Shown here: positions 1,906 to 47,576 of the stretch, in pieces
Layout of the letters: each line of letters begins with the position of its first letter
How positions within the stretch are numbered: position 1 is the stretch's first letter
Virus record (IMG/VR): IMGVR_UViG_3300045005_000056
Span: 1 to 53,736 of that record
From: a virus
Taxonomy: Duplodnaviria > Caudoviricetes
Direction: 5' to 3' (one strand)
Length of the DNA stretch: 53,736 bases
Program-made: the position numbers and the translations under genes
The notes under the pieces: model-generated
What the model saw: only the letters and a program-made list of their open reading frames with translations
Told to the model about the DNA's origin: nothing
Databases searched by the model: none

Positions 1906-2259
1906 ATGATCATTCGAACGCTGAAGTGTCAACTGACGAAGGCCGAGCGCGAAACGAAGAAGGAGGAGCTTGCGCGGCTACTCGACGAACGCGACGCGCT
2001 GCAATCGAGCTTCGATCTTTTGAAGTCGAAGCACAAGGCATCGGTCGCGGAGTTCGACTCTGCGATCAAGACGATGCGCGACAGTGTGCGAACGAACTCG
2101 GAAGATCGCCCGATCGAATGCGAAGAGCGGCACGACGAGCGCCGCGGGCAAATCGACATCGTACGCACAGACACGCTCGAAACCATCGAATCGCGACCGA
2201 TGACCGTAGAGGAGCGGCAAGGAACGCTCTTTGATGACCCCAAGGGCGAGAGGAACTAA
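1906..2259 (+). CDS. Hypothetical phage protein
   Basis: AAGAGGTGAA SD; 117 aa; ends in ERQGTLF. Confidence 0.75.
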   Translation: MIIRTLKCQLTKAERETKKEELARLLDERDALQSSFDLLKSKHKASVAEFDSAIKTMRDSVRTNSEDRPIECEERHDERRGQIDIVRTDTLETIESRPMTVEERQGTLFDDPKGERN

Positions 2260-2762
2260 TGAGCACCACGGACCCGAACGCCGTCATGGTGCCGCTCAGC
2301 GCGCTTAAGCCATGGCTGAAGAATCCGCGCAAGAACGCGGCGGCCGTCGAGCCAGTGGCCCGCTCGATTGAGCGCTTCGGATTCGGCGCGCCCATACTAG
2401 TGCGTCGCGAGAATCATGAGATCATCGCCGGCCACACGCGAGCTCTTGCCGCAAAGAAGCTCGGGTTGAAGGAAGTCCCGGTGCGCTATCTCGACCTCTC
2501 CGAGGAAGACGCGCACCGGCTCGCGCGCGCAGACAACAAGCTCGGCGAGGTTGCCGAATGGGATGTCGAGTTGCTTCTCGCGCAACTTCAGAAGGAAGAC
2601 GCTACCGACCTGCTCGCGCAAGGATGGGACGAGGCGACGCTGCAAGACCTGCTAAATCAGCAAGTCGACTTTCAGCCCGTCGAAGAAACCAACACGAGAC
2701 TCGATGTGCTTACGACAGTGCGGTGTCCGCATTGCGATAAGGAGTTCGAGTTGAAGCGATGA
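2259..2762 (+). CDS. ParB/Srx N-terminal domain protein with C-terminal CPHC zinc ribbon
   Basis: KNPRKN..AVEPVARSIERFGF.APILV...IIAGHTRALAA...LADNK. Confidence 0.88.
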   Translation: MSTTDPNAVMVPLSALKPWLKNPRKNAAAVEPVARSIERFGFGAPILVRRENHEIIAGHTRALAAKKLGLKEVPVRYLDLSEEDAHRLARADNKLGEVAEWDVELLLAQLQKEDATDLLAQGWDEATLQDLLNQQVDFQPVEETNTRLDVLTTVRCPHCDKEFELKR

Positions 2763-2984
2763 CGCTTTACGAAATCCGGAATGCGACGCGTCGTGCCGGG
2801 CAAGCATCGCCACGCGCTCGCGCTCGACAGCGAGATGGCCGCCGCCATCGAAGCGAAGCGACTGCCCTACCCGAAACGTTCTGCGCCGGAAAGTAGCTCC
2901 TGCGATGGCGCCCCCATCGCGGAGGGTGGTGCGACTCCAACCCCGGCGCTCCAATCGACAGCAACGAAAGAGGTGAATCGATGA
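2759..2984 (+). pseudogene. Probable internally deleted Mom-like DNA modification gene remnant
   Basis: Coupled start MTLYEIRNAT, then in another frame GKHRHALALDSEMAAAIEAKRLPYPKR, resembling C-termini of phage Mom-family proteins; core missing. Confidence 0.5.
2883..2953 (+). ncRNA. tRNA-like element lacking a D arm
   Basis: Acceptor-like stem GCGCCGG/CCGGCGC + T + CCA; T-arm-like GGTGG-TGCGACT-CCA(A)CC; one long central hairpin. Confidence 0.55.
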
Positions 2985-3238
2985 TGACGTGGCTTGAGTT
3001 CGACCGTTGGATCGTCGGCGCCGGTGAAGCGCTCGGCTGCCCGGGCATCGCCGACTACTTCAGCGCGGTGTTCCTGCGCGGCGGGCCGGAAGCCGTGCTC
3101 TACGCTCACGCGCGCAACGCGACGTGGTTCCGGCGATGGGGAACGCCTGCTGCGCGGCAGCTGCGGTTGTTTGCGCGGATGATCGCGCGCGAGGCCCATC
3201 GTGAGCAGTTGGCGACTTGGGATTCCGTTCTGCCGTGA
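2981..3238 (+). CDS. Hypothetical protein
   Basis: AAGAGGTGAA SD; 85 aa. Confidence 0.6.
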   Translation: MMTWLEFDRWIVGAGEALGCPGIADYFSAVFLRGGPEAVLYAHARNATWFRRWGTPAARQLRLFARMIAREAHREQLATWDSVLP

Positions 3239-3263
3239 ACGACTGACGAACAAGAGGTGAACG

Positions 3264-3536
3264 ATGCTAGCGAAAAACCGAAGACTGCTCGCCCAACTAT
3301 CCTACGTCGCGCTGTTCGATGCGGACGCGATTGAGGACGCCTATGCGTGGCCACCGAAGACACTGACCGCTGACGAGCTGGACGAGATCGAGCACCTGCG
3401 GCGCATCAGCGACACATGGCACGAACGCGCGAAAGCGGCTGGGTTCAACGGCGGTACCGACGCGGCGTTCGACCCAGCATTCGCGTTTCGCGAATCAGCA
3501 GCAGCGCAGTTCGCGCGATCGGCGGTGCCGCGATGA
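3264..3536 (+). CDS. Hypothetical protein
   Basis: AAGAGGTGAA SD; 90 aa; coupled to next gene. Confidence 0.65.
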   Translation: MLAKNRRLLAQLSYVALFDADAIEDAYAWPPKTLTADELDEIEHLRRISDTWHERAKAAGFNGGTDAAFDPAFAFRESAAAQFARSAVPR

Positions 3537-4381
3537 ACATCGCGTCGTATCAAGCGCGGCTGTCGCGCTTTCGCGACACAACCGGCGCGCTGTCCTTTCG
3601 CGGACAGCCCGCAGAAAGTCACCCAGACGCGTGCGGCTGCAACGACGGCGACGCGACGCCACATGTTCATTACGCCGAAGCGCCGTACAAGTGCGCGCGT
3701 TGCTGCTGCGCCAGTTACCATCCGCGCGGGCCATTCGCTGACGCGTTCCGTAAAGCAGACCTGACCGACTGGAACGAAAGGCTAGGTATCGTGAAGGAAC
3801 ATCCGATCATCTTCAGCGCGCCGATGGTGCGCGCCATCCTCGAAGGTCGCAAGACGCAGACGCGGCGTGCGGTCGGGCGCGGCAACAGCGCGACTGGCGT
3901 GCCACGGAAGGCGCTCGATTGGAACAAGTTGGCCATCAACGGGGCGCGGCCCGACAAGCTTTCGGTCGGCAACATCAGCGGCACGTTCAACGCGATCGAT
4001 GCGCGCTGGAAGGTCGGCGATCGACTTTGGGTGCGCGAAACGTGGACCATCGTCGACAGCTCGGGGACCATCGCTTACCGGTCGACCGATGAGGCGCGGC
4101 TTCCGCCGTGTCGGTGGCGGTCGCCGCTGCACATGCTGCGCAGCGCGTCGCGGCTGACGCTGCAAGTCGTCGCCGTGCGCCCGGAACGGCTGCAAAGCAT
4201 CAGCGAATCCGATGCGCGCGCCGAAGGTGCCACGCCGACGCCCGAACACATCAGCGGGCATCCGCTGACGCCGCACCGGCAAGCGTTCTACTGCCTTTGG
4301 CAACAGCTGAATGAGAAACGCGCGTCGTGGATGGCGAACCCGGTTGTCTGGGTCATCACGTTCCAAAAGGTCGATCCGTGA
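3533..4381 (+). CDS. ASCH/PUA-like phage protein with Cys-rich N-terminal extension
   Basis: PIIFSAPMVRAILEGRKTQTRR, GDRLWVRETW, ERLQSISESDARAEG, NPVVWVITF. Confidence 0.8.
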   Translation: MNIASYQARLSRFRDTTGALSFRGQPAESHPDACGCNDGDATPHVHYAEAPYKCARCCCASYHPRGPFADAFRKADLTDWNERLGIVKEHPIIFSAPMVRAILEGRKTQTRRAVGRGNSATGVPRKALDWNKLAINGARPDKLSVGNISGTFNAIDARWKVGDRLWVRETWTIVDSSGTIAYRSTDEARLPPCRWRSPLHMLRSASRLTLQVVAVRPERLQSISESDARAEGATPTPEHISGHPLTPHRQAFYCLWQQLNEKRASWMANPVVWVITFQKVDP

Positions 4382-46898: not shown

Positions 46899-47576
46899 TT
46901 ACTCCGCTGCCTTGTGTGACTGCCATTCGATCGCTGCTTCGATATCGGCGGCGGCAAACACCTTATGCAAGAATGTCATCGCCATCTCGCGGTCGCCGCT
47001 CGTGTGGCCGATGTATTCGGCCAACGTGGCGCTGACACGCTCGAGGCGATCGGACTTGTCGCGGCATGCGTGCCAATCGCCCCACATGCCTTCGAGCGCC
47101 TTGCGCTGTTTCTCGACGGCCTCCTTGTGCGCGGCCTTGCGCTCCCCATTCTTCTTTCGCGCTGTCAGCGCCTTCTCCAACTCCAAGCGGCACTGCTCCA
47201 CGCGCGATGGGCTATAGAGCTTCACTTCTTTGGCAAGGAGCTGCTCGGACGGGATCGGTTTGAGCACACGCACGCTTGGCCCGGCGTAGTCGGAACCGTT
47301 GCCGATTCGCTCGTCATCGATTTGGCCGATCTGATCACGGCAGCTCGCGATGGCATCTTCCGGTGTCTCGAAGCACAAGTCGCGCGTGTTCCAACTGGTA
47401 TGCTGAAGCTGATAGACCGTGACATCTGGTTCAGGCAACGGCGGTTCATCGTCTAGCACCAGATCGCGAACACGAATCACCCCCTCCCTCATCAGCTCGA
47501 TGTCGATGAAATCCTCGACCTGCGCAGCCGTCAACGCCGCGCGCTGTTGTTCGGACAAGTCCCAGTATGATTTCAC
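46899..47576 (-). CDS. Hypothetical protein
   Basis: AAGAGGTGA SD before GTG; YWDLSEQQRAALT. Confidence 0.7.
   Translation of the reverse strand: MKSYWDLSEQQRAALTAAQVEDFIDIELMREGVIRVRDLVLDDEPPLPEPDVTVYQLQHTSWNTRDLCFETPEDAIASCRDQIGQIDDERIGNGSDYAGPSVRVLKPIPSEQLLAKEVKLYSPSRVEQCRLELEKALTARKKNGERKAAHKEAVEKQRKALEGMWGDWHACRDKSDRLERVSATLAEYIGHTSGDREMAMTFLHKVFAAADIEAAIEWQSHKAAE

What the first reader, a model, noticed from the sequence alone, without database searches (positions are those of the whole stretch)
2883..2953. D-arm-less tRNA-like RNA ending in CCA
Seen: perfect 7-bp GCGCCGG/CCGGCGC stem, discriminator T, CCA. There is a T-arm mimic (GGTGG-TGCGACT-CCA[A]CC with a bulged A) and a single hairpin CTCC.GCGATGG-CGCCC-CCATCGC.GGAG in place of the D and anticodon arms. 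Inference: not a decoding tRNA, but possibly an RNase P/Z processing signal, an anti-defence decoy, or a regulator tied to the adjacent mom-like locus.
Basis: partly seen in the sequence, partly recalled or inferred. Interest (0 to 1): 0.7.

Follow-up and report, generated by a model that had tools for sequence, protein, structure and literature searches.

The report
Glycine-tRNA look-alike in mom gene remnant
The 71-base fold is a real member of a conserved family of deformed glycine-tRNA look-alikes that phages write into their Mom DNA-disguising genes, most likely as the enzyme's own glycine carrier, but in this phage the Mom gene itself has been cut down to a stub.

Summary
The fold at 2883-2953 (+) is real. 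It lies in a 67-codon ORF (2781-2984) that is the C-terminal stub of a Mom-family gene; the record holds no Mom domain. The same RNA shape sits at the 3' end of full mom genes: 38 of 38 and 76 of 80 protein-selected loci, and 72 of 72 motif-selected copies with enough upstream DNA. It is read in all three codon phases (54/17/18 of 89), so the conserved thing is nucleic acid, not peptide. The 7-bp acceptor stem is 99-100% paired with 4-6 pair types at four positions; slid controls give 32-44%. A model built without the window scores it 55.3 bits, E 5e-11.

It keeps the published bacterial GlyRS identity set (G1-C72, C2-G71, U73, C35, C36) plus CCA. It lacks decoding features: pentaloop, no U33, bulged T stem, no D arm. 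Mu Mom is known to take glycine from Gly-tRNAGly.

Best reading: a non-decoding glycyl carrier for Mom, orphaned here. Charging and processing are untested.

A tRNA-Gly-like locus inside mom was printed in 2011 (5' end), and this scan noted embedded copies before on other DNA. New here: the 3'-embedded, D-arm-less form and the orphan copy.

The parts
2259..2762 (+). ParB-like nuclease-domain gene (167 aa), the usual upstream neighbour of mom genes of this clade
   Evidence: PF02195 at 1.3e-08. phrog_620 at 2e-41. ParB followed by Mom is seen in L086, L274, phiEf11, MenE, Martha and Wyborn.
2781..2984 (+). 67-codon ORF, the C-terminal stub of a Mom-family gene. About 155 N-terminal codons, including the catalytic core, are missing. 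Its stop overlaps the next gene's ATG (ATGA).
   Evidence: tblastn gives 48% identity over residues 2-66 to the tail of the 220-aa Mom of L086. That protein matches PF25680 at 1.1e-41. The stub has no Pfam, PHROG or NCBIfam hit. No Mom domain is found in six frames of the record at E<=10. GC3 of this frame is 0.80-0.83 over 2760-2879.
2883..2889 (+). 5' strand of the 7-bp acceptor-like stem (GCGCCGG); G1, C2, G3
   Evidence: In 35 distinct relatives, pairs 1-3 are invariant GC/CG/GC and pairs 4-7 covary, with 100% of cells paired.
2890..2896 (+). 7-nt linker (AAAGTAG) that stands where positions 8-9 and the D arm stand in a tRNA
   Evidence: The 76-nt relatives have a 4-bp D stem here.
2897..2924 (+). 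Long anticodon-like hairpin. CTCC/GGAG plus GCGATGG/CCATCGC, with a bulged T at 2901. The pentaloop is CGCCC, 2909-2913. In a 7-nt frame the centre is GCC (2910-2912), which gives C35 and C36.
   Evidence: NCC is central in 32 of 35 distinct relatives: TCC 15, ACC 14, CCC 2, GCC 1. The loop has 5 nt in 28 of 35.
2925..2942 (+). T-arm-like hairpin: GGTGG, loop TGCGACT, CCA[A]CC, with one bulged A (2939 or 2940)
   Evidence: In 35 distinct relatives it is 100% paired, three of five pairs covary, and the bulged A is kept.
2943..2953 (+). 3' strand of the acceptor-like stem (CCGGCGC), discriminator T2950 (U73) and CCA 2951-2953
   Evidence: T at position 73 in 35 of 35 and TCCA in 30 of 35 distinct protein-selected relatives.
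2981..3238 (+). Downstream 85-aa gene of unknown function, preceded by GAGGTG; not part of the element
   Evidence: No family hit. No relatives in viral contigs.

Best explanation
Window 2883-2953 (+) is a copy of a conserved phage RNA. The RNA is a structurally reduced look-alike of tRNA-Gly that is written into mom genes, here into the last codons of the gene.

Shown:
- It belongs to this family.
- The family is under selection as a folded nucleic acid on the mom-sense strand.
- It travels with Mom.
- It keeps the nucleotides that bacterial GlyRS reads (G1-C72, C2-G71, U73, C35, C36) and a genomic CCA.
- It lacks features needed on the ribosome.

Inferred mechanism, for the family:
1. The RNA is cut out of the mom transcript. 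RNase P would cut at G1 and the 3' end would be trimmed to CCA.
2. Host GlyRS loads it with glycine.
3. The Mom enzyme uses it as a private glycyl donor for N6-adenine modification of DNA. It would be kept apart from EF-Tu and translation by its bulged T stem, non-canonical T loop and pentaloop.

For this copy: the mom gene has lost about 155 N-terminal codons and the record holds no other Mom. The RNA is therefore orphaned. It is most likely a still-intact relic. Less likely, it is kept for a Mom supplied in trans or for another use.

The confidence of 0.55 is for the carrier mechanism. Membership of the family I put at about 0.97.
For: MEMBERSHIP
- R2, built from 82 copies of other phages, scores the window at 55.3 bits, E 5e-11.

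NUCLEIC ACID, NOT PEPTIDE
- In 89 distinct copies with an open Mom frame upstream, the T arm is read in codon phase 0, 1 or 2 in 54, 17 and 18 copies. The stop codon lies inside the element in 8 copies and after CCA in 81.
- Copies also stand at the 5' end of mom (L298), free on the other strand (L082), and in tandem (L274).

STRUCTURE
- Protein-selected set A4 (35 distinct): 93.4% of cells paired against 32-43% when slid. 0 of 500 shuffles reach it.
- In A4 the acceptor and T helices are 100% paired. There are 4-5 pair types at acceptor pairs 4-7.
- Motif-selected set A5 (71 distinct): the acceptor helix is 99% paired, with 4-6 pair types.

LINK TO MOM
- 33 of 34 ORFs that end at the element match PF25680.
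- R1 hits 38 of 38 loci chosen by Mom peptides.
- R2 hits 76 of 80 loci chosen by a Mom-core peptide.
- 72 of 72 motif-chosen copies with at least 650 nt upstream have a full Mom upstream.

GLYCINE IDENTITY
- G1-C72, C2-G71 and G3-C70 in 35 of 35.
- T73 in 35 of 35, TCCA in 30 of 35, central NCC in 32 of 35.
- The published bacterial set is U73, G1-C72, C2-G71, C35, C36 (PMC9976931 section 23 passages; PMC10464925 passages).

CO-SUBSTRATE
- Mu Mom transfers glycine from Gly-tRNAGly to DNA and rejects Gly-tRNAAla (PMC13219725 abstract and sections 10 and 14).

RELATED ARRANGEMENTS
- Arthrobacter phage Wyborn has an ARAGORN tRNA-Gly(tcc) that overlaps the mom stop.
- Microbacterium phage MenE has a canonical tRNA-Gly(ccc) next to mom.

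THE ORPHAN STATE IS REAL
- No PF25680 match in the record.
- An independent run's 642-base contig is identical over 2746-3387.
Against: - No transcript, processing or charging data exist. No RNA run holds the stretch.
- L. plantarum GlyRS had very low activity on a D-arm deletion of tRNAGly and needs the L shape (PMC10464925 section 7). The window's copy has no D arm, so its chargeability is doubtful.
- That enzyme also prefers purine 4 with pyrimidine 69. The window has C4-G69, and the family mostly has U4-A69.
- Mom works with host tRNAGly alone in Mu. Mu, phiEf11, L149 and 4 of 80 Mom-core loci have no such element. The element is therefore not required by Mom enzymes in general.
- An RNase P cut at G1 would remove the mom stop codon from the mRNA. 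That is awkward for a simple cofactor gene.
- In the short class, G1-C2-G3 overlap the Lys-Arg codons of the PYPKR motif, so part of their invariance there could be protein constraint. Copies outside that context (L298, L082) keep them.
- For this window there is no Mom to serve.
- A test for decay of the stub's peptide was inconclusive: 32 of 99 real Moms differ as much.
Confidence: 0.55

Rival explanations
1. This copy is a functionless relic. The tRNA-like RNA was useful only together with Mom. A deletion removed the mom catalytic part, and the 3' end has not yet decayed. (This concerns the state of this copy and can hold together with the family-level carrier reading.)
For: - No Mom domain in the record.
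- 0 of 72 other copies with enough upstream DNA lack a full Mom, so orphan copies do not seem to persist.
- This copy has the lowest score in its length class: 55 bits, against 60-87 for most copies of 66-70 nt.
- Lake-metagenome contigs are identical to it, which fits a young lineage.
Against: - All 23 base pairs of the fold are intact.
- The record is only 85% complete by CheckV, so a Mom gene elsewhere cannot be fully excluded.
- L082 shows the RNA can live as a free-standing gene away from mom.
Confidence: 0.5
2. The family is a cis-acting regulatory or processing element of the mom transcript, not a glycine carrier. Possible forms are an RNase P/Z cleavage site that limits expression of the toxic Mom, a feedback site where Mom or GlyRS binds its own mRNA, or a 3' stabiliser.
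For: - It is embedded in the mom ORF at either end.
- A cut at G1 would leave a stop-less mom mRNA.
- Mu mom is known to be under tight translational control by Com, as annotated in NC_000929.
- A D-arm-less tRNAGly was a poor GlyRS substrate.
Against: - A processing signal needs only the acceptor and T helices. It does not explain the invariant U73 or the central CC of the loop with a free position 34.
- It does not explain the free-standing copy on the opposite strand in L082.
- It does not explain real tRNA-Gly genes beside mom in actinophages.
- Feedback binding by Mom or GlyRS is not excluded and could coexist with a carrier role.
Confidence: 0.2
3. It is a decoy or spare part in conflicts over tRNA. 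For example, it could soak up a host nuclease or toxin aimed at tRNAGly, or titrate a sensor of uncharged tRNAGly.
For: - It has a tRNAGly-like acceptor end with U73 and G71. A GNAT toxin, TacT, is reported to read these two nucleotides on Gly-tRNAGly (PMC9976931 passage).
- It persists here without Mom.
Against: - Its near-exclusive linkage to Mom is not predicted by a general decoy role.
- No defence or toxin gene was tied to it in any call.
Confidence: 0.07
4. It is a DNA-level site (recombination, packaging or protein-binding inverted repeats), or simply a conserved peptide tail of Mom that happens to fold.
For: - It lies in a module just upstream of the terminase genes in L086 and 1.4 kb upstream here.
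- Inverted repeats also covary in DNA sites.
- The tail GGATPTxALQS is the commonest reading.
Against: - Three reading frames, plus stops inside the element, rule out a peptide.
- Free variation of stem pairs with complementarity kept, G-U pairs on the sense strand (63, against 38 A-C cells), and the cloverleaf with a covarying D stem in the 76-nt class point to RNA.
- The Gly identity set and CCA also point to RNA.
- Its position relative to the terminase is not conserved.
Confidence: 0.03

Closest known systems
76-bp tRNA-Gly-like 'pseudo-tRNA' embedded in the mom homologue of Dehalococcoides ssrA genomic islands (McMurdie et al. 2011, PMC3146451; passages read)
   Same: A conserved tRNA-Gly-like fold written inside a mom homologue, in a module that also has a ParB-domain gene. 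L298 in my sample carries the same RNA family in the first ~30 codons of mom. The 5' and 3' forms are therefore one family by the model.
   Different: - The published one lies in the first 150 bp of mom and is a full 76-nt cloverleaf. The window's copy lies in the last codons, is 71 nt and has no D arm.
- The 2011 paper gives no function, because Mom's use of Gly-tRNA was then unknown.
- I did not fetch the Dehalococcoides sequences, so direct homology with them was not tested. Its Figure S1 is a supplement that I could not see.
Phage Mu Mom with host Gly-tRNAGly (Silva et al. 2026, PMC13219725; bioRxiv 10.1101/2023.03.24.534169)
   Same: The enzyme family (PF25680) whose genes carry the element. 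The co-substrate is Gly-tRNAGly, recognised near the acceptor end and not replaceable by Gly-tRNAAla.
   Different: - Mu mom ends right after PYPK and has no element. Mu relies on host tRNAGly.
- The paper's main text has no occurrence of 'tRNA-like' or 'mimic', nor has the preprint.
- Its supplements were not seen.
Non-proteogenic tRNAGly isoacceptors of Staphylococcus aureus, glycine donors for FmhB/FemA/FemB (Rietmeyer et al. 2020, PMC7826273; abstract read)
   Same: The working model is the same: glycine-charged tRNA variants that bind EF-Tu and the ribosome poorly and feed a non-ribosomal transferase. This splits the Gly-tRNA pool.
   Different: - Those are full-size cellular tRNA genes found by tRNA finders, and they serve cell-wall synthesis.
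- This RNA is phage-borne, embedded in a coding region, far more deformed, and would serve a DNA-modifying GNAT.
- Poor EF-Tu binding is inferred here, not tested.
Canonical bacterial tRNAGly (Rfam RF00005; ARAGORN)
   Same: 7-bp acceptor stem beginning G1-C72, C2-G71, G3-C70; U73; CCA; NCC at the centre of the anticodon-like loop; a 5-bp T stem with a 7-nt loop. The 76-nt relatives add a 4-bp D stem and have tRNA length.
   Different: - No D arm in the window's class.
- Pentaloop closed by a 32-38 pair, and no U33.
- T loop TGCGACT, with G where U55 stands.
- One bulged A in the T stem.
- No hit by ARAGORN in the window or in 30 relatives' loci, and none by Rfam at E<=1 in 12 loci.
Aminoacylatable tRNA-like structures at the 3' ends of plant-virus RNAs, and D-arm-less mitochondrial tRNASer (both recalled, not looked up)
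   Same: These are precedents that a tRNA mimic inside a longer viral RNA can be charged, and that a tRNA without a D arm can be charged.
   Different: Different hosts, amino acids and roles. No sequence or evolutionary relation is claimed.

Membership tests
mom-embedded tRNAGly-like RNA (family defined here by models R1 and R2; not in Rfam 15) | Significant score against a covariance model built without the candidate | tested here: met
   R2, built from 82 copies of other phages: 55.3 bits, E 5e-11, full length 1-69 of 69.
mom-embedded tRNAGly-like RNA (family defined here by models R1 and R2; not in Rfam 15) | Acceptor stem GCGNNNN/NNNNCGC, then T, then CCA | tested here: met
   GCGCCGG/CCGGCGC, T2950, CCA 2951-2953. 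In the family, pairs 1-3 are invariant and the helix is 100% paired.
mom-embedded tRNAGly-like RNA (family defined here by models R1 and R2; not in Rfam 15) | T-arm-like hairpin GGNNG, 7 nt, CNN[A]CC, with one bulged A | tested here: met
   GGTGG-TGCGACT-CCA[A]CC. The same T-A variant of the third pair occurs in L235.
mom-embedded tRNAGly-like RNA (family defined here by models R1 and R2; not in Rfam 15) | Hairpin whose loop has NCC at its centre | tested here: met
   Loop CGCCC, with GCC at the centre. This is the only GCC among 35 distinct copies; the others are TCC, ACC or CCC.
mom-embedded tRNAGly-like RNA (family defined here by models R1 and R2; not in Rfam 15) | Lies in or beside a full Mom-family gene | tested here: not met
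   Only a 67-codon C-terminal stub is present, and no PF25680 match is found in the record. This is a feature of context, not of the RNA. 72 of 72 other copies meet it.
Canonical decoding tRNA (RF00005 / ARAGORN) | Detected by standard tRNA finders | tested here: not met
   ARAGORN finds none at this place. Rfam finds none at gathering score, nor at E<=10 on 281 bases.
Canonical decoding tRNA (RF00005 / ARAGORN) | D arm; 7-nt anticodon loop with U33; T loop with U54-U55-C56; unbroken 5-bp T stem | tested here: not met
   There is a 7-nt linker instead of a D arm. The pentaloop is CGCCC, with C where U33 would stand. The T loop is TGCGACT. There is a bulged A in the T stem.
Substrate of bacterial glycyl-tRNA synthetase | Identity nucleotides U73, G1-C72, C2-G71, C35, C36 (PMC9976931, PMC10464925) | tested here: met
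   All are present if the loop is read in a 7-nt frame.
Substrate of bacterial glycyl-tRNA synthetase | L-shaped body with D and T arms (needed by L. plantarum GlyRS) | tested here: inconclusive
   A T arm is present and a D arm is absent. A D-arm deletion of tRNAGly was a very poor substrate. Whether the extended anticodon helix compensates cannot be told from sequence.
Substrate of bacterial glycyl-tRNA synthetase | Is actually glycylated | not testable with these tools
   Needs an aminoacylation assay.
Mom protein family (PF25680), for ORF 2781-2984 | Match to the 202-position Mom domain above 27.1 bits | tested here: not met
   No Pfam hit for the 67-aa product. Only its first ~33 residues align to the end of the domain in L086.

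The most novel reading that the evidence does not exclude
The family is a phage-made, non-decoding glycyl-carrier RNA for a DNA-modifying enzyme, and it is produced by cutting it out of the enzyme's own coding sequence. Each RNase P cut that releases a carrier would also leave a stop-less mom mRNA. Cofactor supply and self-limitation of a toxic enzyme would then be coupled in one sequence. The minimal D-arm-less form in this window would show how far a GlyRS substrate can be reduced. Its survival without Mom would hint at a second, Mom-independent use.
Probability: 0.2. Interest if true: 0.85.

Novelty: new variant of a known kind. Interest (0 to 1): 0.62.

Why it matters
Mom was shown in 2023-2026 to be the first enzyme that uses a charged tRNA to modify DNA. 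If many Mom genes carry their own stripped-down glycine tRNA, three things follow:

- **A dedicated carrier.** Phages would have evolved an aminoacyl carrier kept out of translation. This parallels the staphylococcal cell-wall tRNAGly, but is encoded inside the enzyme's gene.
- **Natural experiments.** The family offers over 100 distinct natural variants that show which tRNA features GlyRS and Mom really need. These include a D-arm-less minimal form.
- **Annotation.** Standard pipelines miss these RNAs. They also translate them as variable Mom "tails" in three frames.

For this window the practical result is an annotation. ORF 2781-2984 is a mom remnant and 2883-2953 is an orphan tRNAGly-like RNA gene.

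Tried and rejected
CLOSE RELATIVES OF THE PHAGE
- blastn of 2259-3540 against named phages gave no match.
- The 85-aa downstream protein has no relatives in viral contigs.
- An exact 34-mer of the element gave no match in viral contigs.
- ParB-based scans of viral, genome and metagenome contigs gave relatives of at most 60% identity. Their use was indirect: L086 led to Mom.

EXPRESSION
- No RNA holder is listed for the stretch.
- Contigs of four lake-water DNA runs were laid. They were identical where they covered, so they gave no variants to test covariation within the lineage.

ALIGNMENT
- Plain MAFFT plus RNAalifold missed the anticodon-like hairpin because stem lengths differ. I supplied that helix by hand for R1.
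- Counts on helices 2-4 of A4 and A5 therefore lean towards my structure and are noisier, at 75-92% paired. The acceptor and T helices do not depend on this.

MOM-FIRST SAMPLE FROM CELLULAR GENOMES
- Only 2 of 400 genomes of the class of L086's genome had Mom above the cut-off. This was too few to use.

DECAY OF THE STUB'S PEPTIDE
- Inconclusive. The stub differs at 5 of 15 columns that are at least 60% conserved, but 32 of 99 real Moms differ at as many.

STRAND TEST BY G-U AGAINST A-C CELLS
- 63 against 38 over all helices. This is only a mild bias and is blurred by misaligned hairpins.

PROMOTER AND TERMINATOR SCAN OF 2200-3600
- Nothing at the element.

MODEL REACH
- R1 and R2 do not reach the actinophage forms. 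Their kinship with the family rests on my reading.

READINGS REJECTED
- A tRNA-derived attachment site: both acceptor strands are present and covary.
- A tmRNA-like alanine mimic: the third pair is G3-C70, not G3-U70.
Full report
OBSERVATION

The RNA minimum-free-energy fold of the + strand is that structure: -35.5 kcal/mol, z -2.87, and 0 of 200 shuffles as good. The minus strand folds less well, with z -1.90 and 11 of 200. ARAGORN does not call it. Rfam finds nothing at gathering score in the window, nor at E<=10 in a 281-base search around it. It occurs once in the record.

CODING CONTEXT IN THE WINDOW

- The window is a 53.7-kb virus record of 64% G+C.
- Upstream lie an RNase T-type exonuclease gene, a phrog_12688 gene and a ParB-like gene (2259-2762).
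- Downstream lie two small unknown genes, a phrog_874 gene and the small and large terminase genes.
- The element lies inside a 67-codon ORF (2781-2984). Its stop overlaps the next ATG.
- The third-position G+C of this ORF is 0.80-0.83 before the element.
- The ORF has no family hit.
- Its product aligns over residues 2-66, at 48% identity, to the C-terminal end of a 220-aa protein that follows ParB in a Tolumonas MAG prophage, L086. That protein is a Mom-family protein: PF25680 at 1.1e-41 and phrog_1384.
- A six-frame search of the whole record with PF25680 finds nothing at E<=10.
- The window therefore holds only the last third of a mom gene.
- Contigs of another lake-water run are identical across the ParB end, stub and element (2746-3387). 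The truncation is thus not an artefact of this one assembly.

IT IS A NUCLEIC-ACID ELEMENT, NOT A PEPTIDE

Between the window and L086 the differences in the T arm and acceptor stem are compensatory: GCGCCGG/CCGGCGC against GCGCATG/CATGCGC, and GGTGG..CCAACC against GGCGG..CCGACC.

A scan of viral contigs with two Mom-domain peptides gave 38 loci. The DNA after their PYPKR codons shows the same element. Their Mom "tails" fall into three peptide types, which are one nucleotide sequence read in three frames. In 89 distinct copies with an open Mom frame upstream:
- The first base of the T arm is in codon phase 0, 1 or 2 in 54, 17 and 18 copies.
- The stop codon lies inside the element in 8 copies and after the CCA in 81.

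COVARIATION

A simple search found a perfect 7-bp stem in 32 of 33 distinct 3' ends. The miss was my own mis-picked segment.

I built model R1 from 23 short copies, including the window. I supplied the hairpin helix by hand, because MAFFT plus RNAalifold missed it.

On the model-made alignment of protein-selected loci (A4, 35 distinct rows):
- 93.4% of cells pair, against 32-43% with partners slid. 0 of 500 shuffles reach this.
- The acceptor and T helices are 100% paired.
- Acceptor pairs 1-3 never vary (G-C, C-G, G-C). Pairs 4-7 show 4-5 pair types each.
- Three T-stem pairs covary.

As a second, independent sample I scanned viral contigs with a 29-letter motif. The motif fixes only the T arm and CGCTCCA. 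It gave at least 120 stretches, of which 80 loci were listed.
- All 80 loci give full-length model hits, 82 copies in all.
- In the 71 distinct rows the acceptor helix, whose variable positions the motif left free, is 99% paired with 4-6 pair types.
- The T arm says nothing in this set, because the motif fixed it.

Model R2, built from this set alone, scores the window at 55.3 bits, E 5e-11.

Of 102 distinct copies, 78 are 66-71 nt and 22 are 73-76 nt. By eye, the long class has a 4-bp D stem that covaries: GTGC/GCAC, GCAT/ATGC, GTGT/ACAC, GTTC/GAAC, GCCT/AGGC. The short class, to which the window belongs, has a linker there instead.

LINK TO MOM

- 33 of 34 ORFs that run into the element match PF25680 at 1e-37 to 1e-56.
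- R1 hits 38 of 38 loci chosen by Mom peptides.
- R2 hits 76 of 80 loci chosen by a Mom-core peptide that lies far from the element.
  - The 80 kept are those most like L086's Mom, at 56-78% identity, so this describes one clade.
  - The four without a hit have mom genes that end within a few codons of PYPK.
- With a Mom HMM of my own, 72 of 72 motif-chosen copies with at least 650 nt upstream have a full Mom upstream on the same strand. Ten more are cut by contig ends.
- Among 205 loci chosen only by ParB, five distinct Mom genes were found, and four of those loci hold the element.
- Outside Mom loci, the roughly 1.15 Mb searched gave no hit better than E 0.7.

Positions vary:
- at the 3' end (most copies)
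- in the first ~30 codons of mom (L298)
- two in tandem at the 3' end (L274; L283)
- one behind each of two tandem mom genes (L383)
- free-standing on the opposite strand between the terminase and ParB genes, with a Mom gene 0.7 kb away (L082)

Mu, phiEf11 and L149 have none.

In actinophages:
- Wyborn has an ARAGORN tRNA-Gly(tcc) that overlaps the mom stop.
- Martha has an evident homologue with a compensated acceptor stem.
- MenE has a canonical tRNA-Gly(ccc) beside mom on the other strand.

WHAT KIND OF tRNA LOOK-ALIKE

In the protein-selected set:
- G1-C72, C2-G71 and G3-C70 are invariant.
- Position 73 is T in 35 of 35.
- The end is TCCA in 30 of 35.
- The centre of the hairpin loop is NCC in 32 of 35 by an automatic rule: TCC 15, ACC 14, CCC 2, GCC 1. 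By eye, two of the three misses (L086, L239) also hold it.
- The loop has 5 nt in 28 of 35.

The published bacterial glycine identity set is U73, G1-C72, C2-G71, C35 and C36 (PMC9976931 section 23; PMC10464925; passages read). That G3-C70 also counts in E. coli is my recollection only. Position 34, which GlyRS does not need, is the free one.

Features needed for decoding or for EF-Tu are missing or altered:
- no U33
- a 32-38 pair that closes a pentaloop
- G at position 55
- a bulged A in the T stem
- no D arm in the short class

ARAGORN finds none in 30 relatives' loci, and Rfam finds none at E<=1 in 12.

WHAT IS KNOWN

- Silva et al. (Nat Commun 2026, PMC13219725). I read the abstract, sections 10, 14 and 38, and searched passages.
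  - Mu Mom transfers glycine from Gly-tRNAGly to N6 of adenine in dsDNA.
  - It accepts all three E. coli isoacceptors and rejects Gly-tRNAAla.
  - It probably reads the acceptor end.
  - The main text has no 'tRNA-like' or 'mimic'. The 2023 preprint has none either.
- McMurdie et al. (2011, PMC3146451; passages) described a conserved 76-bp tRNA-Gly-like locus inside the first 150 bp of the mom homologue of Dehalococcoides ssrA islands, beside a ParB-domain gene. They gave no function.
- Searches for 'Mom-like' with 'tRNA-Gly' (0 papers), for 'momylation' (4 papers), and those found no paper that links such an element to Mom's glycine supply.
- Earlier notes of this scan on other genomes had already proposed a private glycine carrier embedded in mom genes, mostly at the 5' end. 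One of them gave me the lead to the 2011 paper. The scan has therefore found this kind of element before on other DNA.

MECHANISM

Shown: family membership, RNA-type covariation, linkage to Mom, the glycine identity nucleotides with CCA, and the loss of decoding features.

Inferred: release from the transcript, charging by GlyRS, use by Mom, and exclusion from EF-Tu. The working model is that of the staphylococcal non-proteogenic tRNAGly (PMC7826273, abstract).

Against it:
- A D-arm deletion of tRNAGly was a very poor substrate for L. plantarum GlyRS.
- Mom does not need such an RNA in Mu.
- A cut at G1 would take the stop codon off the mom mRNA.

I put the carrier reading for the family at about 0.55. 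A cis-regulatory or processing role without charging is at about 0.2. The rest is divided among decoy, DNA-site and unknown roles.

THIS COPY

All helices are intact, but there is no Mom to serve. No other copy in my samples is in that state (0 of 72). A test for decay of the stub's peptide was inconclusive. I cannot tell a young relic from a retained gene, and I lean towards relic at about 0.5.

VERDICT

Its functional guesses are too general.
- The element is a new positional and structural variant (3'-embedded, D-arm-less, here orphaned) of a tRNA-Gly-like RNA already noted in mom genes.

Noticed in passing
window 46998-47090 (+): ARAGORN calls a 93-nt tRNA-Ser(gct) here. Rfam gives no tRNA match at gathering score, nor at E<=10 in a 301-base search. 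It is probably a false call, or a very odd tRNA.
   Followed up: partly
L248 1801-1872 (Arthrobacter phage Wyborn, OR475274) and L247 about 1795-1866 (phage Martha, NC_041932): A near-canonical tRNA-Gly(UCC) with a normal TTCAA T loop overlaps the stop codon of the Mom-like gene. It is not annotated in either record. ARAGORN calls it in Wyborn only. The two acceptor stems differ by a compensated pair. No CCA is encoded.
   Followed up: partly
L246 1851-1925 (-) (Microbacterium phage MenE, PQ362677): A canonical, annotated tRNA-Gly(ccc) with CCA lies 33 nt after the Mom-like gene on the opposite strand, behind a hairpin.
   Followed up: no
L082 2834-2904 (-) (Myxococcales MAG contig): A free-standing copy of the tRNAGly-like RNA lies between a terminase gene and ParB, on the strand opposite to ParB-Mom. 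It has a 3-bp D-like hairpin (CCC-GGTAGT-GGG). The Mom gene there (81 bits to PF25680) ends without an element.
   Followed up: partly
L274 335-472 (-), L283 6277-6420 (-), L383 1312-1381 and 2023-2092 (+): Multiple copies occur. There are two in tandem inside the 3' end of one mom gene (L274, L283). In L383, identical copies lie at the ends of two tandem mom genes.
   Followed up: partly
L298 1012-1084 (-): The same RNA family is embedded in the first ~30 codons of a mom gene, where it is translated as ..DGGATPTRALQ.. This is the arrangement printed for Dehalococcoides islands.
   Followed up: partly
L065 1331-1406 (+): This copy has a full D arm (GCAT-TGCGTCCA-ATGC) and is followed at once by a run of six T, like a terminator. 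The mom stop lies inside the element.
   Followed up: no
window 3416-4381 (+): A 321-aa ORF matches phrog_874 (unknown function, 1.7e-56) and overlaps the 90-aa ORF 3264-3536 in another frame. The true start is probably further in. A relative lies in L084.
   Followed up: no
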